From positions 26,352-90,351 of the forward strand of contig JAXHMZ010000005.1 of assembly GCA_034521025.1 (NCBI GenBank): a DNA stretch of 64,000 nucleotides. The letters are read 5' to 3'. The notes under the pieces are model-generated. The model worked only from the letters and a program-made list of their open reading frames with translations. It had not been told where the DNA came from and searched no databases. A program made the position numbers and the translations under genes. Shown in pieces: positions 1 to 56,962 of this stretch (its first letter is position 1; each line of letters begins with the position of its first letter). The DNA comes from Candidatus Campbellbacteria bacterium. GTDB taxonomy: Bacteria > Patescibacteriota > Minisyncoccia > Phycocordibacterales > JAXHMZ01.

Positions 1-68
1 AATAATCTACGCTGTGGGAATTCACGATACCAGATAAAATAAGCCAAAAGGCCTAATTTAAGCGAATT

Positions 69-100
69 TAAATGCTTCAATCTATAGATTGAAGCATTTA
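69..100. repeat. Perfect palindrome copy 1: core aatgcttcaat-ctatag-attgaagcatt (71..98), flanked by T-rich sequence
   Basis: Identical 28-nt core recurs at 20591..20618 and 51144..51171; sits downstream of minus-strand ORF 111..737. Confidence 0.9.
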
Positions 101-110
101 TTTAGCGTAC

Positions 111-737
111 CTAAAAGCTAATTTGTATCTTTTCAATTACCCTCTCGTGAGGATAATCCAATATATCGCGCACCAAGCGATCCTTTACGGATAAGCGATA
201 GTAAAAGTCCTCTGTATCAAAGTAGGCGTACGCTATTTCCCGGCCGATGTCGCTTTCGATCATTTGCAGAGTGCGTTCTATATCCTTTTTGCGGATATTA
301 TCTCCAACGACTAATAGGTCCACTCGGTCGCTTGCTCTTCCCAAGAAAATACCGGCCATTACGACAAACTTGAGTTTTCCGGCCTTTTTGAGTTTTTCGG
401 CTATATCTTTGCGTGCCACTGTATCATCAAAAGACAAGAGTCGCTTCAGCGCGTCCGCGTAAACAAAGCGTGGGTTCAATATATATTCAGTTTCCTGCTT
501 GCTCGACCGTTTACTTTTCGTTTTTTTATCTCCTTTAGTTTTCTTCTTGGACGCCTCTTTTCTTTTTAACATTCCGGTCTTTTCAAGAACCCTAAGCTCT
601 TTTCTTATGGTTGTTTTGGTAAGGCGGGTTTTGGAGGCAATATCAACGGTAGTATAATACTTATTCTCGTTAAACAAGAAAAGGCGCATAACCTTTACGC
701 GTGCCACTCCCCCGAACAGTTGCGATAGTATATCCAT
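111..737 (-). CDS. Hypothetical DNA-binding protein: N-terminal winged-helix-like region plus C-terminal nucleotidyltransferase-like motif (GRASDRVDLLVVGD)
   Basis: ORF 208 aa; N-terminal 'TTVDIASKTRLTKTTIRKELRVLEKTGML' HTH-like; C-terminal MNT-fold-like motif; no confident family. Confidence 0.4.
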   Translation of the reverse strand: MDILSQLFGGVARVKVMRLFLFNENKYYTTVDIASKTRLTKTTIRKELRVLEKTGMLKRKEASKKKTKGDKKTKSKRSSKQETEYILNPRFVYADALKRLLSFDDTVARKDIAEKLKKAGKLKFVVMAGIFLGRASDRVDLLVVGDNIRKKDIERTLQMIESDIGREIAYAYFDTEDFYYRLSVKDRLVRDILDYPHERVIEKIQISF

Positions 738-5346: not shown

Positions 5347-5390
5347 CAAAAAACTCCCTCCGCCAAATGTCCGGCGGAGGGAGTTTTGTT
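5347..5390. terminator. Bidirectional intrinsic terminator between convergent genes (ctccctccgcc/ggcggagggag stem with A-run and T-run flanks)
   Basis: Perfect 11-bp GC-rich stem flanked by aaaaaa and ttttgtt. Confidence 0.7.
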
Positions 5391-6087: not shown

Positions 6088-6212
6088 TTTTGTTCCGTTT
6101 AGTTTTTGTCTCTTTTGCTATGCCCCCAATTGTAGCAAAAGAGAAACAAAAGACAATAAAACCCGCAAGTATAGCGGGTTTTATTGTCTTTATCGTCTCA
6201 ACCTTTATCTGT

Positions 6213-7907
6213 CTACTCTGAGATATTAACTTGATCGGTGTCTATACTTTCACCGCTTACGTCTATTTCTGTAGTGCTGGTCGTACCATCTGAGTTAGTG
6301 CTTACGAAATATGACTCTAATTTCATTCCGTAGGTACCGGTACCGTTATCACTAGCTCCATCAGGGTCCGCCTCTACTTCAATTCCAAAGGTTTCAGTCG
6401 CGCCCTCGGCTATTTCATAGGCGCCCCCAGAAAGAGTAGCCGAGGAGCTAGAGATAGAAGCGGTCTCACTCGCTACTTGGTTGTCGTGTCCGGTCATCGT
6501 GTAGAAGAATCCACTGTCTCCACCGTTTGTCACATTATCTACGTCGTCACTGATGTAGTGCGTACCTGACTTGGAAGTGATCTCCACTACAACTTCGAAT
6601 ATTCCAACAGTTCCTTCATCCGTTGCTTGCGCACTTTGGGCAGCCTGCGTGATGGTCAGAATGTCAGAGATCACATCGTGTATTACACCGGAGCCAATTC
6701 CGATGTTTTCTTGATCAGCACCATTAAGGTTTTCATCAAGCGCGGTAATTTCATCAAGCTCCGCTTCAATGGTGTCTGGTGTTGAGAAGTTTGAAGCCTG
6801 ATTAAAGTCTACTTCAACCGTCATCGGCTCCTCTAGATTTTCGACTAACTCATAATCCAAACTATTAAAAGTGACCGTCTCTACAGAGGAGGATGAACTT
6901 GGTGAAACCGAGCTCAAGAGAGTACCATCACCATAAAGACGAGCTTCTGAGATCATATCTCCCACGTTGCTAGAATCTGTTCTCAATATAACTTCTACAG
7001 ATTTGATAGTTATATCCTGGATCTGGGCGCTAACATTATACTTGAGTAGTTCTACATCAGTCGTAGCTGAGTTATCTTCCACGACAAATGTGCTTTGCTC
7101 TGGGGAGTTCGAGTTCGGGTCAACGCTGAGCGTGCCGGACTCGGTCTCGTTAGTTGCCGTGTCGTCCTCTGTGTCGTCTTCTTCTCCCGGCTCTTCATCG
7201 TCTGTGTCGTCGTTAGTCGTATCATCGTCGGTGTCGTCCCCTGTGTCATCGGTTTCATCGTCGGTTGATCCTTCATCCGTCTCCGACTCTTCTTCCGAGC
7301 TTTCTTCGTCTCCATCGTCACCATCATCTCCGTCGTCGCCATCGTCACCATCACCTGCGGTGATGATAGCGTTGGCTTGAGCACGGGTTGATGGTCCGAA
7401 GTATCCTGTTCCCGCGGAAAGACCGAGGGGTGTAAGGATCTGTGAAGAGTAAGCTCCTTGGAAGTCAGTTACAGCGGCTGCTGTAAGTGGTCCGTAGTAA
7501 CTTGTCTCCTGTCCAGGAGATCCTGCTCCGCTTGCAGAAACTCTAAAGCCTCTCGCATTGAGGAACTCTTGGAGTCTTAATACTTCAGTTCCGGTAGAAC
7601 CTACTCCCATGGAGCGGGTGAACGGAGTGAAGTCTCCACTAACTGAAGCGTTCTGAGCGTCCACTTGGGCTTGAAGTCTCTCAATAGCGAGCTCAAGCTG
7701 CTCTATAACCTTCAATAGCTCTGCCGGATCATTCTGCGCTTTCACTGTCTCTGTTTTGTTGAAGCTAAAGAAAGTCCCCATTGCCATAAAGGCAACCACA
7801 AGCGCGAGGCCGAGAAATCTCAGCGCGAATGTGTTTTGATTTTTGTCTAAATTCATAAATTTGTAATCTTGATATTCGATTAAACTCGTATAAATGTGTT
7901 GTTCCAA
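6213..7907 (-). CDS. Cell-envelope protein, paralog A (intact): TM/signal anchor, coiled coil, PG_binding_1-like domain, poly-Asp/Gly linker, beta-rich S/T/D-rich C-terminal domains
   Basis: 'GVGSTGTEVLRLQEFLNARGF..YYGPLTAAAVTDFQGAYSSQ' matches PG_binding_1 pattern; 'DGDDGDDGDDGDDGDEESSEEE' linker; hydrophobic N-terminal stretch. Confidence 0.75.
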   Translation of the reverse strand: MEQHIYTSLIEYQDYKFMNLDKNQNTFALRFLGLALVVAFMAMGTFFSFNKTETVKAQNDPAELLKVIEQLELAIERLQAQVDAQNASVSGDFTPFTRSMGVGSTGTEVLRLQEFLNARGFRVSASGAGSPGQETSYYGPLTAAAVTDFQGAYSSQILTPLGLSAGTGYFGPSTRAQANAIITAGDGDDGDDGDDGDDGDEESSEEESETDEGSTDDETDDTGDDTDDDTTNDDTDDEEPGEEDDTEDDTATNETESGTLSVDPNSNSPEQSTFVVEDNSATTDVELLKYNVSAQIQDITIKSVEVILRTDSSNVGDMISEARLYGDGTLLSSVSPSSSSSVETVTFNSLDYELVENLEEPMTVEVDFNQASNFSTPDTIEAELDEITALDENLNGADQENIGIGSGVIHDVISDILTITQAAQSAQATDEGTVGIFEVVVEITSKSGTHYISDDVDNVTNGGDSGFFYTMTGHDNQVASETASISSSSATLSGGAYEIAEGATETFGIEVEADPDGASDNGTGTYGMKLESYFVSTNSDGTTSTTEIDVSGESIDTDQVNISE

Positions 7908-7963
7908 TATTATACCGCATACAGTTTTTCTCGTAGTCCAAAATGTGGATTATCCCAACACAA

Positions 7964-8001
7964 AAACCCCCTCGCCACGTATGTGGGAGGGGGTTTTGTT
8001 G
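7964..8001. terminator. Hairpin terminator (aaccccctc..gagggggtt + T-run) followed by conserved motif gagcctcgctcagctgt
   Basis: Same terminator-plus-motif module recurs at 10694..10745. Confidence 0.6.
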
Positions 8002-8039
8002 AGCCTCGCTCAGCTGTGCGCGTAAGAGAGTAAACTTAC

Positions 8040-10543
8040 TTAGGATCCGATATGCTCTTTATCCGTCTCGATGTTCTCACTGGTTACATCCACTTCTGCC
8101 GTACTTGTCGTACCGTCGCTATTCGTTGTGATCCAGTATTCGGAGAGTTGAAGTCCGTAGAATCCGGCCGCGTCAGGAGTAGGTATATCGGGATCTACGA
8201 CAGCCGTAAGCGTAAATGTTTCGCTCTGTCCTTCACGAACGAGATAGCTCGTATCCGTACCGCCGGTAAAGGCAGTGAGAGCCGCAGCTCCGCTAGCCGC
8301 TTCAGCTAGATAAGCTGAGTTGAGAGAGATGTTACCAACGCTTCCAACCGTATCTTGCGTGAGCGTCAACGTACCGTCACTGTTATCGGTTGACGTTACG
8401 TCAAGCGCAGCGCCGGTGCCATCGATTGCTGTGTCAAGCGTCGCTGCGACATTTGCCGCAGTCGTATCTCCGTCAATGGCAACTTCTACACCACCCGCGA
8501 TACCGTTTGCTGCCTGACATTCTGCTGCCGTACTCGTGTCGTCTGTTAACCCAGCATCCGTGTCAAACCAGAAACAGACAGCGGTTGCGGCGGCAGGGTT
8601 GTTGCTCGCCTCGTGGAGAATAAAGTAGTCATTGTTCGCGAGGTTCGCCTGCGTATCTACCGTAAGGGTCGATGTTGCCGCGACCTCAGAACCGGTTGTG
8701 TCAGCTGCTGTGGCAAGTGACGTTGATTCACTATCCACCTGAGTTGCTTCACCGGTAAGCGTATAGAAGAATCCGTTGTCACTTGCGACAGCGTTCTTGC
8801 GCACGTTGCCGAGCCGCGTCGTCTGGATGTAAGCAGCCCATCTTTCGATCGCAGTCAGGTCAAACGTGAGCTTGAGCGTCGACTGATCAGCAGCATCATT
8901 GACGCTGCTCGTCTGCGACCAATCACTCCACAACAACGGTCGTTGTCGTCACATCTGGTGCCTGCGTTCCCGCGACCGATATCAAGGTTTGCTGATGCTG
9001 AGGCCTGGAACAGTTTCGAAGTTCTTGATCTCTGCGGTCATCGCTTCAAGGTCAACCTCGAAGGGGATCACCGTCGGTGAATCCGGTATTCGATGTTGCG
9101 TAGAAGTCAACTTCTACAGAGAACTCAACCTCGCTGTCCTGCTCAATGAGGTACTCAAGGTCGCCGCTGCCATTGAAGGTAACGGTTTGATTGCTCGTAC
9201 CACTGAGTCCACTCGTTGACGTCGTGTCAATAAGATCACCGTCAGCGTAGAGTCGGGCACGACGAACCATGTCTTCTACGGGACTTGATGTCGTGTTGAA
9301 GTTCACATCAACTGTGTTGACAGTGATATCCTGGTCTTCTGCCATTGCGTCGAACGAGAGTACGTGTACGTCATTCGTTCGGTTGTTTGCATCAACCTGG
9401 AATATTGTCTCATCAGGGCGAAGTTCGTGCTTGACGAAACGTCGAGCGTTCCGGCTCCGAAGCTCGCCGTCGAAGTCGATGTCGACATCAGCAACATCGT
9501 TGTCATTGCCGGGTCCGTATCCGATGAGACCTGCTCCGTCCACGAAGCGCGATACGGTCAAGAAATCGATGGTCGGCGACAACCGTGGCGCCTAGCACGG
9601 CTACCCGCGAGGGTATCGTGTACCTCGACTTCGAGTGAAAGCTCGACAGTCTCACCTTCTCGTACGATCTCATCGAGACCGGAGAAGCGTGCTCGCCATT
9701 CAGAGCCGACTTCTGAGAAGTTGTCTGAATCGTCTTCAAGCGCTGCTACTTCAGTTCCGTCGACCATAAGTCGGACTTCACTGAAGTATAGCCATGGACG
9801 TGAATCAAACATAAAGTCAACGCGGTTGAGCTCGACGTCTGCATCTTGTGCTTCAACGTCTGCTTCAACCGTTAGGTCAGAGTCACCTGTGTCGATCTCA
9901 ACGGATCCGACACTGAGGTCACTGACGTTGATGAACCCTTCACCTCCGGAGAGGCCTTCGTCATCGGAGTCATCGCTGTCGTCGCTGTCGTCTGAATCGT
10001 CACTGTCGTCTCCATCGTCGCTGTCCTCACTGTCGTCACCATCACCTGCGGTGATGAGGGCGTTAGCTTGAGTACGGGTTGATGGTCCAAAGTATCCCGT
10101 TCCCGCGGAAAGACCGAGGGGTGCAAGGATCTGTGAAGAGTAAGCTCCTTGGAAGTCAGTTACAGCGGCTGCTGTAAGTGGTCCATAGTAGCTTGTCTCC
10201 TGTCCAGGAGATCCCGCTCCGCTAGCGGCTACAGTCGTAAAGCCGTTGGCGTTGAGGAACTCTTGGAGTCTCATTACTTCAGTTCCGGGTAGCACCTACT
10301 CCCATGGAGCGGGTGAACGGAGTGAAAGTTCATGCCACTGATGCTTGGCCGTCAATTTGCGCTTGCATACTCGGCGATCTTCGCTTCGAGTTGTGCAATG
10401 ATCGCTGCTAGGTCTTCTGAATCGCTTTGTGCTCTTGTGCTTGGTAAGCACCGGCAAAAGCGAATGTCGCTACAAGAGCGAGGACCGCGACGAACCCAAT
10501 GGACCTTGTAGGTAATTGCATTTCGCATTTCGTATAAACTCAT
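8040..10543 (-). pseudogene. Paralog B of the envelope protein, disrupted by multiple frameshifts; four fragment ORFs
   Basis: N-terminus 'MSLYEMRNAITYKV' and C-terminus 'SDWSQTSSVNDAADQSTLKLTFDLTAIE...TNSDGTTSTAEVDVTSENIETDKEHIGS' align to paralogs C and A but fall in different frames; several 1-nt indels visible against paralog C. Confidence 0.65.
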
Positions 10544-10693
10544 AAAGTTATTTCTAATAGTAAGTCTTATAAAGCGGTATTAGTACTACCGTACCGTATA
10601 TTATACATCTATTTTTACCGTCAACATACTCTGATGTGTGGATTATTCCAAAAAGCCCGCTTTATCGGGCTTTTTGATAAATGAGATCAAAAC

Positions 10694-10722
10694 AAAAAAT
10701 CCCCGAATTGGGGATTTTTTGT
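10694..10722. terminator. Hairpin terminator (aatcccc gaat tggggatt + T-run) followed by gagcctcgctcagctgt motif
   Basis: Seen in sequence; paralogous to the 7964..8001 module. Confidence 0.6.
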
Positions 10723-10780
10723 GAGCCTCGCTCAGCTGTTTTGTTCAAGAGACGTGAGTCTCTATACGAGAACCCTAGTG

Positions 10781-12784
10781 ATTAGGATCCGTCGTTGAGA
10801 TACTCTTGATCTGGTCTCGATACTTTCGCCAGTTACATCCACTTCGGTCAAACCGCTCGCACCAGTGCTGTTCGTCGTGATCTGTAGTCAGCGAGCTGAA
10901 TTCCGTAGAATCCGGCGACACCGACAGTATTAGTGTTCTCAGCGACGACACGAATGCGGAATGTTTCGGTCTCTCCCGCGCGAACGAGATATGCATCACT
11001 GAGTTGTCCTGATCAGCACCGAAGGTGATGTCAATGTCGAATTCTCGAGATCCGTGAGTTTCCTCCGAGGAGGTCGTAATCGAATCCGTTGTTCGGTCAC
11101 CAGTCGCAACAGCATTGTTGATATAATAATCATCTTCGATAGCGGTAAGGTCAAACGTGAGCTTGAGAGTCGCTCGGTCGGCATCGTCGTTGATATCGGT
11201 GCTCTGCGACCAGTCACCTGTTACCACCGTCGTCGTTACAACATCATGCGTTGTTCCTGCACCGATGCCGATCGACGTTTCGTTAGCAGCTTCGAAGTCT
11301 TCGTCCTCTGCTCGAATTTCATCAAGCTCAGCTTCGATGGTGTCGGCTACGCTGAATCCTGTGTTTGATGTTGCGTAGAAGTCAACTTCGACTGACATCT
11401 CTTGCTCTTCACCTTCAGGGATCGTGTACTCGAGGTTGTCGAACGTAACGGTCTGGTTCGATGTACCACTGAGGCCGCTTGTTGTCTCGGTTCCGACGAG
11501 ATCACCGTCAGCGTAGAGTCGTGCACGGCGAACCATATCCTCTACGGCGCTTGTCGTGGTCGAGAGGTTTACATCAACCTCGTCGATCTCGATGTCCTGG
11601 TTCTCCGCTTCTGCGTTGAACACAAGCACCTCTTGGTTGTCGGTTCGGTTGGTGTCGTCAACGACGAATACGGTCTCGTCGGGCGTGTTAGCGCTCGTGC
11701 TGAGATCAAGTGATCCTTGTCCGAAGTTGTCGTCAAACGTGACGTCAACGTCGCCGATGTCGCCATCCGCGCTAGGGCCGTATCCGATGATACCTGCTCC
11801 GTCTAGGAAGCGTACGCCGTCTTCATCCATCGTAGCGACGACTGTGTCGGTATCACGCGTACCAGCGAGAGTGCTGTGCACCTCTACTTCGAGCGCAAGC
11901 TCGACAGTATCACCTTCTCGTACAACCTCATCGAGGCCGGAGAAGCGTGCTCTCCATTCAGAGCCAACTTCAGAGTAGTCACCTGAATCGTCTCCAAGAA
12001 CTGCTACTTCGGTTCCGTCGACCATAAGTCGGACTTCATTGAAGTAGAGCCATGGACGTGAGTCGAACATAAAGTCGACGCGGTTCATCTCGACGTCAGA
12101 GTCTTCTGCCGTAGCTTCGAGTTCAACAGCTACGTCAGTGTCTCCCGTGTCGATCTCGACCGATCCGACGCTGAGGTCGTTAAAGTCGAGGAATCCTTCA
12201 CCTCCGGATAGACCTTCGTCGTCCGAGTCGTCGGAGTCATCGCTGTCGTCACCATCATCTCCGTCGTCGCCGTCGTCACCGTCGTCACCATCACCTGCGG
12301 TGATGATAGCGTTGGCTTGAGCGCGAGAAGATGGTCCAAAGTATCCTGTTCCCGCGGAAAGACCGAGGGGTGCAAGGATCTGTGAAGAGTAAGCTCCTTG
12401 GAAGTCAGTTACAGCGGCTGCTGTAAGTGGTCCATAGTAGCTTGTCTCCTGTCCAGGAGATCCTGCTCCGCTAGTGGCTACTGTAAAGCCGTTAGCGTTG
12501 AGGAACTCTTGGAGTCTCAATACTTCAGTTCCGGTAGCACCTACTCCCATGGAGCGGGTGAACGGAGTGAAGTCTCCACTAACTGAAGCTTGGCCGTCAA
12601 TTTGCGCTTGCAAATCGGCGATCTGTGCTTCGAGTTGTGCAATGATCGCTGCTAGGTCGTCTGCATCGCTTTGTGCTTGTGCTTGGTAAGCACCGGCAAA
12701 AGCGAATGTCGCTACAAGAGCGAGGACCGCAACGAACCCAACTACCTTGTAGGTAATTGCATTTCGCATTTCGTATAAACTCAT
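10781..12784 (-). pseudogene. Paralog C of the envelope protein; 5' two-thirds intact, 3' ~400 nt carry at least two frameshifts (true stop inferred at ggatcctaa 10781..10789)
   Basis: Called ORF ends in nonsense tail '...FARERPKHSAFVSSLRTL'; alternate frames restore 'DAYLVRAGETETF...GFYGIQLADY' and 'QITTNSTGASGLTEVDVTGESIET' matching paralog B; 1-nt deletion near 10900 and 1-nt insertion near 10812. Confidence 0.55.
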
Positions 12785-20437: not shown

Positions 20438-20514
20438 ACTGGGCTACTCTAGCACAGAGACAGTCTGGTTTCAATAGTTTGTACTAGATGAGTACACCAT
20501 TAAATAGCGCCTTT

Positions 20515-20535
20515 GAACAACTTCGGAAGTTGTTC
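20515..20535. repeat. Hairpin gaacaacttc-g-gaagttgttc in the rpsF upstream leader
   Basis: 10-nt inverted repeat seen directly. Confidence 0.7.
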
Positions 20536-20546
20536 AACAACCAAAA

Positions 20547-20584
20547 GGTGTCAACCTGCCAGGTCGACCTGGCAGGTTGACACC
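20547..20584. repeat. 38-nt perfect palindrome ggtgtcaacctgccaggtc|gacctggcaggttgacacc (centre GTCGAC)
   Basis: Exact reverse-complement symmetry of 19+19 nt verified by eye; single copy in window. Confidence 0.9.
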
Positions 20585-20590
20585 TCAATT

Positions 20591-20618
20591 AATGCTTCAA
20601 TCTATAGATTGAAGCATT
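20591..20618. repeat. Perfect palindrome copy 2 (aatgcttcaatctatagattgaagcatt)
   Basis: Identical to 71..98 and 51144..51171; between tatD 3' end and rpsF 5' region. Confidence 0.9.
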
Positions 20619-21486: not shown

Positions 21487-22637
21487 TCACTTGTCCCCTT
21501 TTCGACGGAAATACTTTTTGCCGGACAGTTTATCCGGTAAAAAACTCGCCTGCTTGCCTTTTTTGTCGGGATACATTTCGTAATCCTTGCCGTATCCTTC
21601 CTTTTTCATAAGCTCGGTCGGTGCATTGCGGATGTGCAATGGAATTGCCAGATTCCCGTATTTTTCGGCATCAGCCAGGACGGCTTTATAAGCGTCGTAG
21701 GCACTGCGATCTTTTTTCGCGGAGGCCAAGTAAGAGACCCCGTGAGCGAGATTTATCCCCGCCTCCGGCAGGCCGACTGTCTCAACCGCGCGGAAAACGG
21801 CGTTTGCCACCACCAGAGCTGTCGGTTGCGCCAACCCGATGTCTTCGGAGGCAAAAATGACCATTCGCCTGGCTATGAACTTTGGATCCTCTCCGGCCGA
21901 GATCATTCGCGCGAGGTAATACATAGCGGCATCTTTATCACCGGCTCGCATGCTTTTTATAAACGCACTTATAGTATTATAGTGCTCCTCGCCGGCGCGA
22001 TCGTAGCGCAAATTCTTCATCGCAGTTGCCTCCAGACTCTCCAGGTTTATTTCACCGTAAAGCGAGTATGTATTTTCCAAAAGCATCAAGACTTCCCTCG
22101 CATCACCGTTCGAGAAATTCAAAAGATACTCTCGGGCTTCGTCGCTTATATCTATATCCGCCCTATCAATGATGCGGCTGATCTCCTCCTCGGTGAGCTG
22201 GTTCAAAGAAAAAACTCTGACTCGAGACAAAAGAGGAGAGATTATCTCAAAGGAAGGATTCTCCGTGGTAGCACCTATGAGAACTATTTCACCGGACTCC
22301 ACATACGGCAAGAAGATAGTCTTGCTGTGCTTTATTGAAACGATGTATCTCATCTAGAAAAAGAACTTTTACTCCCACCATCTTTCGCGATTACGTTCTT
22401 TATGTCGGCCTTACCGGCGGATACCGCTGAAAGTTCAAAAAAGTCCGCGCCGATCGCTTCCGCGTAGATTCGCGCAATCGTGGTTTTGCCCACCCCCGGC
22501 GGCCCCCAAAGGATAAAGGAAAATATCTTTTTCTCCTTTATAGCGTGATACAAGGGCTTCCCTTTGCCGGTAAGGTGATCTTGACCTATAAATTCGTCTA
22601 AATTTTTTGGTCTTATTTTTGCAGCTAAGGGTTCCAT
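21487..22637 (-). pseudogene. rarA: Recombination-associated ATPase RarA/MgsA, split into two ORFs (22350..22637 and 21487..22353) by a frameshift at an A5 run; ATGA overlap
   Basis: N fragment 'LAAKIRPKNLDEFIGQDHL..ILWGPPGVGKTTIARI'; C fragment 'IGATTENPSFE..GDAREVLMLLE'; the Walker-B position reads VSIKHSK instead of DEIHRFNK. Confidence 0.7.
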
Positions 22638-30501: not shown

Positions 30502-33500
30502 TTAAAGCTTCTCTACCACTAGCGTTACCTCGAAATCTCCTATTGATTGGGTTGTGCCTGTTTGAGTATTGTCTATAGGACCGACAATTAACTTTTCGGC
30601 ATTAGAAGCTTCTTTTATCTCCTCTTTATACTCCTCAACTATAGAGTCGAATTCTTCTTTGTCCGAATGGAAATAGACGTTGACCAGGTCGCGCGGATTC
30701 AAACCTAAGTTTTTGCGTTCATTTTGGACAGTCCTGATGACCTCGCGGGCGATACCTTCTTTTCTGAGCTCTTCTGTTATATGACTATCTATTTCAACCT
30801 CGCTTTTGCCTTCTTCATATTTGACCGACTTAACATTCATCTCATCGGAGATTATAGATTCCATAGTATCGTCTAACTTTTCGCCCCCATAAGAAAGCGA
30901 GGCGAGAGGTTGGCGCACTTTTATCCCCTCTTTATTCCGCTCCTCAAGTCCTTCGGAGACTATTTCACGAACTCTTTTCATCTTCTCTAAGATATCTCCG
31001 TTTGGCTTCTTTAAAGTAGGCCAAGACTCGAGGTGTACACTTTCCGGATCGCTCTCACCCCTGAGAGAACGATATAGGTAGTCGGCATAAAATGGCATAA
31101 ACGGAGCTGATATCAAAGCAAAAGTCTTTAGAGTAGTATAAAGCACGCGACGAGACATCTTTCCATCTTCTGAATTTTCACCCTTGAAACGATCTCTGGA
31201 ACGGCGAAGATACCAAGTAGACAGATCTTCCACAAAATCAAAGAGGGGTCTCGTGGCTTTATCTAACTCGTAGTTGTCAAGCGAGTGTCGCACCATTTGC
31301 TCGGTTTTGGAGAGTCTAGATTCGATCCATATATCCAGAACATTTTCGCTTTCTTCGAGCTCTTTCTCTTCTTCTAAGGATCTATCCCGATATATTTCGT
31401 AGAATTTATATACGTTATCAAGCCGGCCGATCACTTTTCGTGAGATCTCGGCAACACCTTTCTCGGAGAAATTGAGCGATTCGGCGCGTACTACCGAGGA
31501 AGATGACATATACAATCTGAGAGAGTCAGCTCCATATTTGCTTATTACCTCCAATGGGTCGGGATAGTTCAAAAGTCGTTTGGACATTTTTTGCCCGTCT
31601 TCAGAAAGAATTATGCCGTTGACTATTACGTTTTTGTAGGGCGACTTGTTAAATAGTCCAACTCCTAAGACAAGCAAAGAATAGAACCACCCTCTGGTTT
31701 GATCCAGACCTTCAGCGATAAAGTCCGCCGGGAAACCTTTGTTCCCTTCCGGTTCAAATATATCTCTATTCTCAAAAGGATAATGATGCTGGGCATACGG
31801 CATAGAGCCGGATTCATACCAGGTGTCAAAAACTTCAGCTACTCTGGTAAGCTCAGTTCCTGACTCGGAATAAACTTTTATTTGGTCAATATAAGGACGG
31901 TGAAAATCAAACTGTCTTCCGGTGTCCGTACGAACGTCAAATCTTATCGGAAAAGCAAACCTGCCAACACTCTGTCGATGAAGAAGCTCTTCGTTGATCT
32001 CTTTGTTTTCTATACTCCGTTCTATCTCAGCGACAATACCTTGGTGCGCAACTACAAGAACCGATTCACCGGCGTGCTTATGAGTCGCGTTTTCTAGAAA
32101 CCGATTGACTCTATCACTCACTTCTTTCCAACTTTCACCGTTGGTGCCTCGAACCGCCTCAAATTGCTCTTGGGGTGGAAGACTGAAATATTCTTTTCTT
32201 TCTTCTTTTACCCTCTCGCTATCCAGTGTTTCTTTTTCCCAATCTCCGCTATCCACCTCGCTAACTTCCTCTGCGATCTTCACTTCAAGACCCAATTCCT
32301 CGGCTACTATCTCGGCTGTCTTTCTAGCCCGAAGTACAGGAGAAGAATAAATAACATCAACAGAACCGGATAGCTTCTTGGCAGCCTCTTTCGCCTCTTT
32401 GACACCAGTCTCAGTTAGTCCGTACTTATCGAGAGAAGAATCCAATACATTCAATACATTCTTCTCGCTTTCGGCGTGGCGCATTGTGATTATTCTTGTT
32501 AACGCCCCACGTGATTTCTTGCGTAATTCTTCAACTGAACCAATAACTTCCATCTCCTTTGTCTCCTCATTTCTCCAAACTGGCAGAGGGGAACCCCAGT
32601 AGCGCGAACGAGAAACAGCCCAATCGCGAGCGTTTTCCAGCCATTTGCCAAATCTTCCCGTACCTATGTGATCAGGGGTCCAACTTACTCCTTCATTTGC
32701 TTTGATGATCTCATCTTTTATGTCAGTTACCGCAATAAACCAGGAAGTAGTAGCGTAATTTAAAAGCGGTGTGTCACAGCGCCAGCACAAAGGATACGAG
32801 TGGGTTATTTTCTCTTTGGCGAAGAGAAGGTTGTTCTCGGCAAGCCACTTTATTATCTTGATATCAGTAGCCATATGATCTTCCCCATCTTCGTCTTTTG
32901 GCTTTACCTTTTCTCCGGCAAAATCAACTACGTCTTCGGTAAACGCTCCCTCAAAATTGACATGGTGAACTATAGGTATATTCTTCTCTTGCGCGAGCAA
33001 GAGATCTTCCTCACCGAAGGCGGGTGCTAAGTGCACAATACCGGTTCCGTCGTCCGTCGTTACATAATCAGCGTCATATATTTTCCAGGCGTTTTCTTTG
33101 TTAGGAAGATCTTTATCTAAAAAGTACGGAAATGGTGGCTTGTACGAAAGCCCGACCAGATCACTACCCTTCATTTCTTTGGTTTGGATTTCGCTTTTCC
33201 CAGCCAACCAAAATAGCTGGTGCAGTTTGCCTTCGTTTGATGAATCCTTTTGTCCGGCTTCTTTGGCGAAAATATAAGTACCCGGATCAATGTCGCTCTT
33301 TAAGTCAAAGCCCAATTCCTCAATATTTTCCGGAACGGTAACGGCAATATAGTCAATATCTTTGTGCACGCCGACCGCCACATTACCCGGAAGCGTCCAC
33401 GGCGTAGTTGTCCAAGTCAAAAGAAAAGTTCCCGGCTCTTCTTTTAGTTCGAACTTTGTCGTTACGGAAAGATCCTTGATGTCTTGATATCCTAAATTAA

Positions 33501-34164
33501 CTTCAAAGTTGGAAAGCGTAGTGCCACAACGCGGACATAGGTGCATAGACTTAAAGCCCTCGTACACTAGATCTTTCTCAAAAAGAGTCTTGAATATCCA
33601 CCAGGTGGTTTCCGAGTATTCCGGATCCATAGTTTTGTAGTCATTTTCCATATCCACGAAACGTCCCGTGCGGGGAACGATCTTTCTCCATTCATCTCTG
33701 TACTTCAAAACCGAACCTCTGGCTTCCTCATTGAACTTATCTATTCCGAGATCCTCGATCTCACGTTTTGTATTAACGCCGAATTTTTTCTCGATCAAGT
33801 TCTCTATAGGCAGACCGTGTACATCCCACCCCCAAACTCTTCTCACGTGTTTTCCTCGCATTGTTTGAAAACGCGGGATTATATCCTTAATAGTCCCGGC
33901 CAAGAGATGGCCATAGTGCGGCAGACCGGTGGCGAACGGAGGACCATCATAAAAGACAAATTCCCCTTCCGGCGAAGGTTTGGAAAGAGACTTAAGAAAT
34001 ATATCGCTTTCGTTCCAAAATTCGAGGATGTCTTCCTCTCTTTTAGATACTTCACTTTCAGCTTTTATTTCCACGTTTTCTTTAGAGTTCTCTTTTTCCT
34101 TTTTTTTCACGTTTTCTTTCGTTTTTTTGGAATTCATCTCTTGCGAGTTTAGGTCATTGCTCAT
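30502..34164 (-). CDS. ileS: Isoleucyl-tRNA synthetase (type 2) with an inserted histidine-phosphatase (PGAM/SixA-like) domain and a K/E-rich N-terminal extension
   Basis: 'PPFATGLPHYGHLL' HIGH, 'GQKMSKRLLNYPDP' KMSKS, editing-domain and 'WAVSRSRYWGSPLPVW' motifs; ~200 aa between 'GSVEELRKKSRG' and 'FDFHRPYID' containing 'RHAESEKN', 'SSPVLRARKTAEIV', 'VLVVAHQG'. Confidence 0.9.
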   Translation of the reverse strand: MSNDLNSQEMNSKKTKENVKKKEKENSKENVEIKAESEVSKREEDILEFWNESDIFLKSLSKPSPEGEFVFYDGPPFATGLPHYGHLLAGTIKDIIPRFQTMRGKHVRRVWGWDVHGLPIENLIEKKFGVNTKREIEDLGIDKFNEEARGSVLKYRDEWRKIVPRTGRFVDMENDYKTMDPEYSETTWWIFKTLFEKDLVYEGFKSMHLCPRCGTTLSNFEVNLGYQDIKDLSVTTKFELKEEPGTFLLTWTTTPWTLPGNVAVGVHKDIDYIAVTVPENIEELGFDLKSDIDPGTYIFAKEAGQKDSSNEGKLHQLFWLAGKSEIQTKEMKGSDLVGLSYKPPFPYFLDKDLPNKENAWKIYDADYVTTDDGTGIVHLAPAFGEEDLLLAQEKNIPIVHHVNFEGAFTEDVVDFAGEKVKPKDEDGEDHMATDIKIIKWLAENNLLFAKEKITHSYPLCWRCDTPLLNYATTSWFIAVTDIKDEIIKANEGVSWTPDHIGTGRFGKWLENARDWAVSRSRYWGSPLPVWRNEETKEMEVIGSVEELRKKSRGALTRIITMRHAESEKNVLNVLDSSLDKYGLTETGVKEAKEAAKKLSGSVDVIYSSPVLRARKTAEIVAEELGLEVKIAEEVSEVDSGDWEKETLDSERVKEERKEYFSLPPQEQFEAVRGTNGESWKEVSDRVNRFLENATHKHAGESVLVVAHQGIVAEIERSIENKEINEELLHRQSVGRFAFPIRFDVRTDTGRQFDFHRPYIDQIKVYSESGTELTRVAEVFDTWYESGSMPYAQHHYPFENRDIFEPEGNKGFPADFIAEGLDQTRGWFYSLLVLGVGLFNKSPYKNVIVNGIILSEDGQKMSKRLLNYPDPLEVISKYGADSLRLYMSSSSVVRAESLNFSEKGVAEISRKVIGRLDNVYKFYEIYRDRSLEEEKELEESENVLDIWIESRLSKTEQMVRHSLDNYELDKATRPLFDFVEDLSTWYLRRSRDRFKGENSEDGKMSRRVLYTTLKTFALISAPFMPFYADYLYRSLRGESDPESVHLESWPTLKKPNGDILEKMKRVREIVSEGLEERNKEGIKVRQPLASLSYGGEKLDDTMESIISDEMNVKSVKYEEGKSEVEIDSHITEELRKEGIAREVIRTVQNERKNLGLNPRDLVNVYFHSDKEEFDSIVEEYKEEIKEASNAEKLIVGPIDNTQTGTTQSIGDFEVTLVVEKL

Positions 34165-42977: not shown

Positions 42978-43068
42978 AACGTGTCTATTGTAGCGTATTT
43001 ATTGAAAGCGCAAAAGAAAAGCAAGGTCGAAGGAGTCGACCTTGCTTTTCTCGACTAACTTTAAAGAC

Positions 43069-51137: not shown

Positions 51138-51177
51138 AAATTTAAATGCTTCAATCTATAGATTGAAGCATTTAAAT
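51138..51177. repeat. Perfect palindrome copy 3 (core 51144..51171), extended to a 40-nt perfect palindrome by AT-rich arms
   Basis: Between convergent umuC and S9 peptidase genes; plausible bidirectional terminator. Confidence 0.9.
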
Positions 51178-51202
51178 TGAAAATAGACAGCTAAACTCCT
51201 AG

Positions 51203-56823: not shown

Positions 56824-56962
56824 CCCCTCTGCTCTCCCTAGGTTAAACCTAGGGAGGGTGAAAGAGTTTTCTCGACCTCTTTCCTGTTAGATTCCAGGTA
56901 GTATGATATAAAGCATTGCTTAAACTTAAAAGACTCGAGACAAGTCTCGAGTCTTTTTTAAT

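What the first reader, a model, noticed from the sequence alone, without database searches (positions are those of the whole stretch)
69..100. One 28-nt perfect palindrome (11-6-11: AATGCTTCAAT-CTATAG-ATTGAAGCATT) present identically at three loci 20 and 51 kb apart
Exact copies sit at 71..98, 20591..20618 and 51144..51171, always intergenic and always at gene 3' ends, with A/T-rich symmetric flanks; copy 3 extends to a 40-nt perfect palindrome. Identical conservation across unrelated loci points to a dispersed REP-like element. It is most simply a shared bidirectional intrinsic terminator, since copy 3 lies between convergent umuC and the S9 peptidase gene. The 11-6-11 geometry also matches tyrosine-recombinase or dif-type sites and palindromic operator sites, so a protein-binding role is possible.
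Basis: seen in the sequence. Interest (0 to 1): 0.5.

Follow-up and report, generated by a model that had tools for sequence, protein, structure and literature searches.

The report
Dispersed 28-base palindrome after gene ends
A tiny uncultured (Campbellbacteria, CPR) bacterium carries three identical copies of a 28-base perfect palindrome just after gene ends, where its relatives have ordinary transcription terminators; it looks like a small REP-like repeat used as a transcript-end hairpin, which is of modest interest rather than a new kind of system.

Summary
No shuffle of the window produced a match. All three copies lie 12-30 nt after stop codons.

The window comes from a Candidatus Campbellbacteria MAG. 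The palindrome is not this organism's standard terminator. About a dozen other terminator hairpins in the window each have their own sequence, a GC-rich stem and A/T tracts. The palindrome fails the U-tract test.

It does occupy the terminator position. Two of five convergent spacers hold only this hairpin, and relatives have an ordinary terminator at the same S9-peptidase/umuC site. Relatives with 62-77% TatD identity lack it at orthologous sites.

A near-identical version (centre CTGCAG) is multi-copy in a Staskawiczbacteria-like organism, and a CTACAG version occurs on a third contig. None of 185,579 reference genomes has the family.

The window has no recombinase, no skew switch and no broken synteny, so a dif or recombination site is unlikely. 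No isolated half-sites occur.

Best reading: a REP-like dispersed palindrome serving as a non-canonical, bidirectional transcript-end hairpin. How it is copied is unknown.

The parts
65..100 (.). Copy 1. The core 28-mer is at 71-98 and the perfect palindrome spans 69-100. The 36-nt stretch 65-100 is identical to copy 3. It lies 12 nt beyond the stop of the wHTH-like gene 111-737(-), in a probably convergent spacer at the window edge.
   Evidence: RNA hairpin about -16.5 kcal/mol for the 32-nt palindrome on its own and -21 to -22 kcal/mol for the 71-nt stretch around it
20591..20618 (.). Copy 2. Here the palindrome is the 28-nt core only. It lies 20 nt after the TatD stop on the minus strand and is the first of three consecutive hairpins in the 201-nt TatD-to-rpsF spacer.
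   Evidence: absent from the orthologous spacer in relatives L006-L010 and L040
51139..51178 (.). Copy 3. The core is at 51145-51172 and the perfect palindrome extends to 40 nt. It is the only strong hairpin in the 80-nt spacer between convergent umuC(+) and the S9 peptidase gene(-).
   Evidence: (-25 kcal/mol, z about -6). Relatives have an ordinary terminator at this position.
20545..20586 (-). Neighbouring feature, not a family member. A 40-nt perfect GC-rich palindrome followed by UUUUGGUUGUUG, the probable true intrinsic terminator of TatD. It shows that copy 2 is not needed as a terminator at this site.
   Evidence: (-36 kcal/mol)

Best explanation
The three sites belong to a small family of dispersed, extragenic, perfectly palindromic repeats (REP-like) in Parcubacteria-group (CPR) bacteria. 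Each copy sits 12-30 nt downstream of a stop codon.

Transcribed from either strand, it gives the same AU-rich hairpin: a 12-bp stem with a UAUA loop, lengthened to 14-18 bp by copy-specific symmetric A/T flanks.

Inferred function: it acts as the transcript-end hairpin. At convergent gene pairs (copies 1 and 3) it would pause RNA polymerase arriving from both sides. It would then end transcripts, either as a weak intrinsic terminator with an AUUUAAAUU-type tail or by the hairpin-positioned head-on collision mechanism described for E. coli convergent genes. It could also protect mRNA 3' ends from exonucleases, as REPs do.

The identity of the copies reflects recent copying rather than a functional need for this exact sequence. 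The copying could be non-autonomous mobilisation or gene conversion; the mechanism is unknown. Perfect symmetry through the centre and into the flanks is most simply explained by hairpin-templated (template-switch) correction, by selection for a longer stem, or by both.

Shown: existence, identity, positions, hairpin stability, absence from relatives, and a sister variant in another lineage. Inferred: termination or stabilisation activity and mobility.
For: - Non-chance identity. There are three exact copies and none in any of 100 shuffles.
- It is the only dispersed intergenic repeat family in the window.
- Hairpin stability. RNA hairpins are -14 to -20 kcal/mol for the element alone and z is -4.6 to -6.2 in context. 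The core stem (-10.7) falls within the range of the window's own terminator stems (-5.7 to -24).
- Terminator slot. All five convergent spacers hold exactly one strong symmetric hairpin. Three are unique A-tract/GC-stem/T-tract terminators and two are this palindrome. The chance of at least 2 of 3 copies landing in convergent spacers is about 0.05.
- Orthologous replacement. In relatives L041 and L043 the syntenic S9-peptidase/umuC spacer carries a conventional terminator (TTAAAATACCTCG...CGAGGTATTTTAA).
- Lineage-specific gain. The palindrome is absent from the TatD-rpsF spacer of relatives at 62-77% TatD identity. The closest relative has a 90-nt spacer with one hairpin, against 201 nt with three hairpins here.
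- Family beyond the window. AATGCTTCAAT-CTGCAG-ATTGAAGCATT occurs at two different loci in one sample (L002, L005). The same ComF-adjacent locus as L005 was recovered in a further JGI sample (L001) and in two ENA assemblies (L033, L034). The organism's ComF matches Staskawiczbacteria. A CTACAG version occurs on L004.
- Symmetric flanks. Copy-specific flanks extend the palindrome far more than chance predicts (19 extra pairs in total against about 2 expected; P<0.004 even for pure A/T flanks).
- Published precedents. REPs are short extragenic palindromes with effects on neighbouring gene expression (PMC3337134). [quoted passage not shown]
Against: - No copy has a canonical U-tract.
- In L002 and L005 the 3' flank is A-rich on both strands.
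- Copy 2 is followed by a proper terminator, so it is dispensable for termination there.
- There are no expression data.
- Only three copies are visible and the rest of the genome could not be obtained.
- No mobilising enzyme was found in the window.
- No consistent target-site duplication could be derived from the flanks.
- Unlike classical REPs, the palindrome is perfect and occurs singly rather than as doublets.
- Symmetry at the very centre (UAUA, UGCA) is not required by an RNA hairpin. That leaves room for a DNA-level reading.
Confidence: 0.5

Rival explanations
1. Selfish or neutral mini-element with no host function. In this reading the element is a solo pair of abutted terminal inverted repeats or a minimal MITE or REP, mobilised in trans by an enzyme encoded elsewhere. 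It would accumulate after stop codons only because insertions there are harmless.
For: - The copies are identical, whereas every ordinary terminator in the window is unique.
- The distribution is patchy. The family is present in a Campbellbacteria MAG and in a Staskawiczbacteria-like organism but absent from closer relatives of each.
- It is absent from 185,579 reference genomes.
- Copy 2 and the L004 copy sit in clusters of other hairpins.
- Copy 2 is functionally redundant with the adjacent terminator.
Against: - Copy 3 replaces the terminator found in relatives, and no other hairpin is left in that spacer. Some termination role there therefore seems needed.
- No transposase, RAYT or recombinase is present in 64 kb.
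- There is no consistent target-site duplication.
Confidence: 0.22
2. DNA-level binding site of a symmetric (homodimeric) protein. Candidates would be a nucleoid or segregation factor, a transcription roadblock at gene ends, or the enzyme that copies the element.
For: - The 28 bp are perfectly symmetric, including the centre.
- The differences between the window version and the L002/L005 version are symmetric. The centre changes from TA to GC, and one A/T is lost in both arms (TTTAAATGC against TTTAATGC).
- The same sequence is kept across two candidate-phylum-level lineages at non-orthologous loci.
- The flanks are A/T-rich and symmetric.
Against: - There are no degenerate copies or isolated half-sites, as a binding-site family would normally show.
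- The sites are not in promoters.
- The HTH genes next to copy 1 and next to the L005 copy are not homologous.
- L004 has an asymmetric centre, CTACAG.
- 28-40 bp is long for a simple dimer site.
- No candidate protein was identified.
Confidence: 0.15
3. Canonical bidirectional Rho-independent terminator, with the identical sequence only an incidental result of duplication.
For: - The position is directly after stop codons and between convergent genes.
- The hairpin is stable.
- Copies 1 and 3 have partly U-rich tails (AUUUAUUUA, AUUUAAAUU).
- A conventional terminator occupies the orthologous position in relatives.
Against: - It fails the stem-plus-T-tract criterion at all three copies, although that scan does find the neighbouring terminators.
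- The minus-strand tail of copy 2 is AAUUGAGG.
- The L002 and L005 copies have A-tracts on the 3' side.
- The stem is AU-rich (4 G-C pairs of 12), unlike the organism's other terminators.
Confidence: 0.1
4. Site for a Xer/dif-type or other tyrosine recombinase, on the basis of the 11-6-11 geometry.
For: The only support is the geometry: 11-bp arms and a 6-bp centre, 28 bp in all.
Against: - There are three copies within 51 kb of a region with uniformly negative GC skew, so this is not a terminus.
- The centre is perfectly symmetric, which would give recombination no directionality.
- Gene order across copies 2 and 3 is the same as in relatives, so there are no inversions or deletions.
- No recombinase is encoded in the window.
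Confidence: 0.03

Closest known systems
REP / REPIN elements of Proteobacteria (E. coli REP/BIME; Pseudomonas REPIN-RAYT systems; PMC3337134, PMC3116915)
   Same: Both are short (about 20-40 nt) palindromic sequences that are extragenic, dispersed and multi-copy. They are often found after gene ends and between convergent genes, can fold as hairpins in RNA or single-stranded DNA, and are lineage-specific families. Some REP doublets carry flanking A/T runs that have been linked to transcription attenuation.
   Different: Here the palindrome is perfect and AU-rich, whereas REPs are imperfect and GC-rich. It occurs singly rather than as REPIN doublets. Only 3 copies are visible, against hundreds for REPs. 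No RAYT gene was seen in 64 kb. The host is a reduced CPR genome. Nearly the same sequence is shared by two distant lineages, whereas REPIN-RAYT systems are described as mostly vertically inherited (abstract of bioRxiv 10.1101/2022.05.22.493013, listed).
Bidirectional terminators between convergent genes (SEnd-seq class of Ju et al. 2019, as described in bioRxiv 10.1101/2022.10.23.513370)
   Same: A symmetric hairpin-encoding element lies between convergent genes. That class is described as not resembling intrinsic terminators, with the hairpin acting as a pause that positions head-on polymerase collisions. This fits copies 1 and 3 and the L005 copy.
   Different: Those elements are not repeated sequences. 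Copy 2 lies between tandem genes rather than convergent ones. The mechanism has been shown only for E. coli RNA polymerase, and nothing has been tested in CPR bacteria.
Canonical bidirectional intrinsic terminators (A-tract / GC stem / T-tract), such as those at 770-801, 5350-5387 and 56928-56957 in this window
   Same: Same position after stop codons, the same two-fold symmetry and comparable hairpin free energy.
   Different: The palindrome has no T-tract, an AU-rich stem, an identical sequence at several loci and a palindromic loop.
Xer/dif sites and Acinetobacter pdif modules (28 bp, 11-6-11; from general knowledge)
   Same: The length and the 11-6-11 layout are the same, and pdif sites can also be multi-copy.
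   Different: The palindrome has a perfectly symmetric centre and arms. It is not at a skew switch. The intervening segments are conserved housekeeping synteny, not modules. No recombinase is nearby.
Neisseria DNA uptake sequences, which often occur as inverted pairs forming terminators (from general knowledge)
   Same: A specific short sequence in inverted pairs sits after genes in an organism likely to depend on DNA uptake. ComF and type IV pilus genes are present in related contigs.
   Different: The 11-mer arm never occurs on its own in 64 kb. All six exact occurrences lie inside the three palindromes.

Membership tests
Rho-independent (intrinsic) terminator | Stable stem-loop in the nascent RNA | tested here: met
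   The hairpin is -14.3 kcal/mol for the 28-mer and -20.3 for the 40-mer. In context z is -4.6 to -6.2. The stem is AU-rich (4 G-C pairs of 12).
Rho-independent (intrinsic) terminator | U-tract (about 5 or more U in 8 nt) directly 3' of the stem | tested here: not met
   The element is not reported by the stem-plus-T-tract scan at any copy, although that scan finds the neighbouring terminators. The tails are AUUUAAAUU-like at best. The L002 and L005 copies have A-rich 3' flanks.
Rho-independent (intrinsic) terminator | Location just downstream of a stop codon, at the end of an operon | tested here: met
   The copies lie 12-30 nt from stop codons. The orthologous slot in relatives holds a conventional terminator.
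Rho-independent (intrinsic) terminator | Transcripts actually end there | not testable with these tools
   No RNA 3'-end data are available for this MAG.
REP / REPIN | Short palindromic sequence confined to extragenic space | tested here: met
   All three copies, and the L002, L005 and L004 copies, are intergenic.
REP / REPIN | High copy number across the genome (tens to hundreds) | tested here: inconclusive
   There are 3 copies in 64 kb. The rest of the 266,769-bp contig and of the genome could not be retrieved.
REP / REPIN | Associated RAYT (HUH Y1 transposase) gene flanked by the repeats | tested here: inconclusive
   About 40 of the roughly 60 larger ORFs were scanned and none is a transposase or RAYT. 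The genome-wide question is not testable here.
REP / REPIN | Imperfect palindrome, typically arranged as inverted doublets (REPIN) | tested here: not met
   The palindromes are perfect and occur as single units.
Collision-type bidirectional terminator (E. coli SEnd-seq class) | Hairpin-encoding element between convergent genes that does not resemble an intrinsic terminator | tested here: met
   Copy 3 meets this definitely and copy 1 probably, as does the L005 copy. Copy 2 lies between tandem genes. The class is as described.
Collision-type bidirectional terminator (E. coli SEnd-seq class) | Convergent transcription ends at the element | not testable with these tools
   No transcript data are available.
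Xer/dif recombination site | Single site at the replication terminus (GC-skew switch) | tested here: not met
   There are three sites, and GC skew is negative throughout the window with no switch.
Xer/dif recombination site | Cognate tyrosine recombinase; evidence of recombination at the site | tested here: not met
   No recombinase was found in the window. Synteny across copies 2 and 3 is identical to that of relatives. The genome-wide presence of Xer was not testable.
Transcription-factor operator | Located in promoter regions, with degenerate family members and half-sites | tested here: not met
   The copies lie after stop codons. The nearest start codon (rpsF) is 153 nt away, beyond two other hairpins. 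With up to 3 mismatches there are no extra hits, and the arms never occur alone.
DNA uptake sequence (DUS/USS) | Many single copies of the short motif, including inside genes | tested here: not met
   The 11-mer arm occurs only inside the three palindromes. One 1-mismatch hit is consistent with chance.
Rfam RNA family | Match at gathering score | tested here: not met
   Only two tRNAs reach threshold. The E-value scans around copies 2 and 3 give only sub-threshold generic hairpin (miRNA-precursor) matches.

The most novel reading that the evidence does not exclude
The palindrome could be the recognition site of an unidentified symmetric DNA-binding or DNA-processing protein that moves between Parcubacteria lineages. 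Examples would be the enzyme that copies this minimal 28-36-bp element, or a protein roadblock that ends transcription at gene boundaries. That would explain three things: why nearly the same sequence sits at non-orthologous loci in two candidate-phylum-level lineages while closer relatives lack it; why the differences between the two versions are symmetric, including at the centre; and why the flanks are symmetric but copy-specific.
Probability: 0.15. Interest if true: 0.6.

Novelty: new member of a known kind. Interest (0 to 1): 0.3.

Why it matters
CPR/Patescibacteria genomes are small and compact, and I know of little published work on dispersed repeats, terminators or small mobile elements in them; my searches of the held papers found none. 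A repeat family that sits in the terminator slot without a U-tract would add to evidence that transcript ends in these organisms need not follow the E. coli rule. The same palindrome in two distant Parcubacteria lineages, but not in their closer relatives, would also point to exchange of very small DNA elements between CPR bacteria. If instead it is only a weak terminator that has been duplicated a few times, it is a minor annotation detail.

Tried and rejected
- Exact 28-mer in 185,579 reference genomes: 0 hits. The source MAG is therefore not in that collection.
- Degenerate scan ATGCTTCAAT-N4-8-ATTGAAGCAT in the reference genomes: 22 single hits in unrelated phyla. Their loops and flanks are heterogeneous and many have ordinary A/T-tracts. 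I judged them coincidences among ordinary hairpins and not family members.
- L003, a Bacteroidota SusC contig with centre TTCGAA and a proper U-tract on the gene's strand: probably also a coincidence. Its position after an S9-like gene matches copy 3 only at family level (31% identity over 42 aa).
- Viral contigs, phage records and plasmid records: nothing meaningful.
- Retrieving more of the MAG through exact-protein look-ups failed.
- DNA-uptake-sequence idea: rejected, because the arms never occur singly.
- LexA/SOS box idea (copy 3 is next to umuDC): rejected. The site is downstream of umuC, and Patescibacteria LexA is reported to use a direct-repeat motif.
- Cognate HTH idea: the wHTH-like gene next to copy 1 and the HTH gene next to the L005 copy are not homologous.
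- Target-site duplications (TA, TTAA): no rule fits all copies.
- A composite element with the neighbouring GGTGTC...GACACC hairpin: the window and L002 share only about 12-15 nt there, which is too little to decide.
- Literature search for the sequence itself returned only unrelated primers. No paper on CPR palindromic repeats or CPR intrinsic terminators was found.
- Assembly artefact: rejected. Synteny with relatives runs across copies 2 and 3, and the sister variant recurs identically in several independent assemblies.

Full report
**1. The observation**

The 28-mer AATGCTTCAATCTATAGATTGAAGCATT is present exactly three times, at 71-98, 20591-20618 and 51145-51172. Allowing up to three mismatches finds no further copy, and none of 100 dinucleotide-preserving shuffles gave a match.

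The perfect palindrome extends to 32 nt at copy 1 (69-100), stays at 28 nt at copy 2, and reaches 40 nt at copy 3 (51139-51178). Copies 1 and 3 share 36 identical bases. It is the only dispersed intergenic repeat family in the window. The other repeats are paralogous coding sequence or low-complexity runs.

**2. The organism and gene context**

The TatD and S9-peptidase products are 100% identical to proteins of a 'MAG: Candidatus Campbellbacteria bacterium' on a 266,769-bp contig. This places the window in the Parcubacteria group of the CPR/Patescibacteria.

The window holds housekeeping genes:
- rplJ/rplL, clpC-like, ftsK, recA, efp and rpsF-ssb
- tatD, metG, proS, ileS and argS
- nusG-rplK, an ECF sigma factor, pgi, zwf and umuDC

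About 40 of the roughly 60 larger ORFs were scanned, and none is a recombinase, transposase or RAYT. GC skew is negative throughout, so there is no origin or terminus in the window.

- Copy 1 lies 12 nt past the stop of a 208-aa wHTH-like gene (111-737, minus strand). The gene on its other side is cut by the window edge.
- Copy 2 lies 20 nt past the TatD stop and 153 nt upstream of the rpsF start.
- Copy 3 lies between convergent umuC (22 nt away) and the S9 peptidase gene (30 nt away).

**3. Is it this organism's standard terminator? No.**

A survey of all spacers of at least 25 nt finds about a dozen strong hairpins of the usual bidirectional type, with an A-tract, a GC-rich stem and a T-tract. 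Examples are AAAAGAAAACCCGC...GCGGGTTTTCTTTT at 770-801, and those at 5350-5387, 6149-6191, 10692-10722, 43015-43051 and 56928-56957. Each has its own sequence.

The palindrome differs in three ways:
- Its stem is AU-rich, with 4 G-C pairs in 12.
- Its loop is palindromic.
- It has no T-tract. The stem-plus-T-tract scan does not report it at any of the three loci, although it does report its neighbours.

At copy 2 the TatD transcript would meet three hairpins in turn. First comes the palindrome with the tail AAUUGAGG. Next comes a 40-nt perfect GC-rich palindrome (-36 kcal/mol) followed by UUUUGGUUGUUG, which is a textbook terminator. A third hairpin follows.

**4. It nevertheless sits in the terminator slot**

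All five convergent spacers in the window contain exactly one strong symmetric hairpin. Three are conventional terminators and two are the palindrome. The chance that at least 2 of 3 copies fall in the 13% of intergenic DNA that is convergent is about 0.05.

The hairpin is stable: -14.3 kcal/mol for the 28-mer, -20.3 for the 40-mer, and z of -4.6 to -6.2 in context. Its GC-closed core (-10.7) lies within the range of the local terminator stems.

The most telling comparison is with relatives that keep the same gene order (PGA_cap, S9 peptidase, umuC/umuD in the reverse orientation, bPH_2, pgi and so on). In them the S9/umuC spacer holds an ordinary terminator directly after the S9 stop, TTAAAATACCTCG-N-CGAGGTATTTTAA in L041 and a T-tract hairpin in L043. 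That spacer is 194-232 nt long, against 80 nt here. In the window the palindrome is the only hairpin left at that site.

**5. Lineage-specific gain**

Syntenic relatives at 62-70% TatD identity (L006-L010) and the closest one at 77% (L040) have no trace of the palindrome in the TatD-rpsF spacer. L040 has a 90-nt spacer with one hairpin, against 201 nt with three hairpins here. Gene order across copies 2 and 3 is unchanged relative to these genomes. This argues against the sites being active recombination sites.

**6. The family outside the window**

The exact 28-mer is absent from 185,579 species-representative genomes.

A scan of those genomes with the 10-nt arms and any 4-8-nt centre gave 22 single hits in unrelated phyla, including an archaeon. 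Their loops are heterogeneous and many have ordinary A/T-tracts. I read these as coincidences, expected given the very large number of hairpin terminators scanned.

The JGI metagenome scan gave five contigs. Three of them (L001, L002, L005) also share features the search did not demand: the A...T pair that completes the 28-mer, a CTRYAG centre and A/T-rich palindromic flanks. A fourth, L004, shares the first two but lacks A/T-rich flanks.
- L001/L005 and L002 carry TTT-AATGCTTCAATCTGCAGATTGAAGCATT-AAA at two different loci in the same sample.
- The L005 locus recurs identically in two ENA assemblies (L033, L034).
- The ComF gene of that organism matches Staskawiczbacteria at about 70-73% identity. 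NCBI ranks this as a different candidate phylum within the Parcubacteria group.
- Relatives of that organism at 75-77% ComF identity lack the family in about 20 kb each.
- L004 has the centre CTACAG, one transition from each of the other two. It lies in a hairpin-rich non-coding stretch.
- L003 (Bacteroidota, centre TTCGAA) has a normal U-tract on the gene's strand and is probably a coincidence.

Caveat: because my scans required exact arms, they say nothing about how much the arms vary.

**7. Symmetry**

The window version and the L002/L005 version differ by symmetric changes. The centre is TATA against TGCA. The arms read TTTAAATGC against TTTAATGC on both sides.

Flanks outside the shared unit differ between copies, yet they extend the perfect palindrome by 2, 0, 6, 3, 7 and 1 pairs. 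About 2 pairs in total would be expected by chance, and P is below 0.004 even if the flanks were pure A/T. Some copies share flank bases, so they are not fully independent.

Stem-extending symmetry fits selection for, or mutational drift towards, a longer hairpin. Symmetry at the very centre is not needed by an RNA hairpin. It is better explained by hairpin-templated (template-switch) correction of quasi-palindromes, which I cite from general knowledge, or by a two-fold symmetric protein.

In L002 and L005 the flanks are T-rich on the 5' side and A-rich on the 3' side, the reverse of a terminator. For the family as a whole a canonical U-tract is therefore not under selection.

**8. Alternatives checked**

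- DNA uptake sequence: the 11-mer arm never occurs outside the palindromes.
- Operator: the copies are not at promoters and have no degenerate relatives. The two neighbouring HTH genes are unrelated.
- LexA box: wrong location, and Patescibacteria LexA is reported to use a direct repeat.
- dif/Xer: there are three symmetric sites in a region of monotonic skew, intact synteny and no recombinase.
- Known RNA families: none.
- Phage and plasmid records and viral contigs: nothing.
- Literature: no paper mentions the sequence, and none was found on CPR palindromic repeats or CPR terminators.

**9. Interpretation**

The best-supported reading is a small REP-like family of dispersed perfect palindromes, gained in particular Parcubacteria lineages. 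They lodge directly after stop codons and supply the transcript-end hairpin.

At convergent pairs the hairpin could work in two ways. It could act as a weak intrinsic terminator, since the tails AUUUAAAUU and AUUUAUUUA are partly U-rich. More in keeping with the missing U-tract, it could act as a pause element that positions head-on polymerase collisions. That mechanism is described for the E. coli class of bidirectional terminators that 'do not resemble intrinsic terminators' (bioRxiv 10.1101/2022.10.23.513370).

Protection of 3' ends, as known for REPs (PMC3337134), is equally possible. At copy 2 it is the more likely role, because a proper terminator follows.

The function and the means of copying are both inferred. 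No expression data, no full genome and no mobilising enzyme were available.

I put about 0.5 on this reading, 0.22 on a purely selfish or neutral element, 0.15 on a DNA-level protein site, 0.1 on a plain intrinsic terminator and 0.03 on a recombination site.

**10. Verdict**

'Shared intrinsic terminator' is only a functional analogy, because a defining feature is missing. The recombination and operator ideas are disfavoured.

It is a new member of a familiar kind of element, in an unusual host group. The cross-lineage distribution and the through-the-centre symmetry remain unexplained. Interest is modest.

Noticed in passing
window 20513-20586: A 40-nt perfect GC-rich palindrome (20546-20585, AGGTGTCAACCTGCCAGGTCGACCTGGCAGGTTGACACCT) is followed on the minus strand by a U-tract. 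A further hairpin lies at 20513-20537. Together with copy 2, three hairpins are stacked in the TatD-rpsF spacer. The closest relative (L040) has a single hairpin in a 90-nt spacer.
   Followed up: partly
L002 522-551 compared with window 20574-20590: In L002 a mini-palindrome GGTGTCGACACC followed by TCA lies just 5' of its palindrome copy. This resembles the end of the window's 40-nt palindrome (GGTTGACACCTCA) in the same position relative to copy 2. It may hint at a composite two-hairpin unit, or it may be chance.
   Followed up: partly
window 30502-34164 (-): The isoleucyl-tRNA synthetase is 1220 aa long and has a histidine-phosphatase (His_Phos_1/PspA-like) domain inserted at about residues 546-727. 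The same architecture occurs in related Campbellbacteria contigs (L007, L010).
   Followed up: partly
window 21487-22637 (-): The MgsA/RarA AAA+ gene appears split into two overlapping ORFs (288 aa and 95 aa), whereas a relative (L006) has one 383-aa gene. This could be a frameshift, a pseudogene or an assembly error.
   Followed up: no
window 6213-12784 (-): A run of paralogous large genes shares 75-91% identical 300-nt blocks and 9-nt-period Asp/Ser-rich coding repeats. They have no Pfam or NCBIfam match and may be surface proteins.
   Followed up: no
window 20446-20474 (-): A promoter-like TTGAAA-17-TAGAGT with an extended TG ends 9 nt before the rpsF ATG. The GTGNTAGAGT motif is conserved at the same place in relatives. 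This suggests a nearly leaderless rpsF-ssb-rpsR transcript.
   Followed up: partly
L004 520-800: This is a hairpin-rich non-coding stretch with several copies of a GTCATTGCGAG...CGAAGCAATCT-type motif around its CTACAG palindrome copy. It appears to be another family of short repeats in an unidentified organism.
   Followed up: no
L035 9962-9989 and L036 5467-5494: A 28-nt perfect palindrome ATTGACTTTATTATATAATAAAGTCAAT lies in the divergent spacer between pilM and comF in a Staskawiczbacteria-like contig. Its position suggests an operator.
   Followed up: no
L010 18553-18594: A unique 42-nt perfect palindrome TTATCGTCATCGCAAGACGATATCGTCTTGCGATGACGATAA lies in a tandem spacer of a related Campbellbacteria contig. 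Long perfect palindromes seem to recur in these genomes.
   Followed up: no
L005 583-2293: The CTGCAG palindrome copy abuts the stop codon of a small membrane-anchored HTH gene. It lies next to toxin-like, DUF4065 (Panacea-type) and restriction-modification-like ORFs, which together look like a mobile or defence islet. These three assignments are my reading of the ORF translations, not database matches.
   Followed up: no
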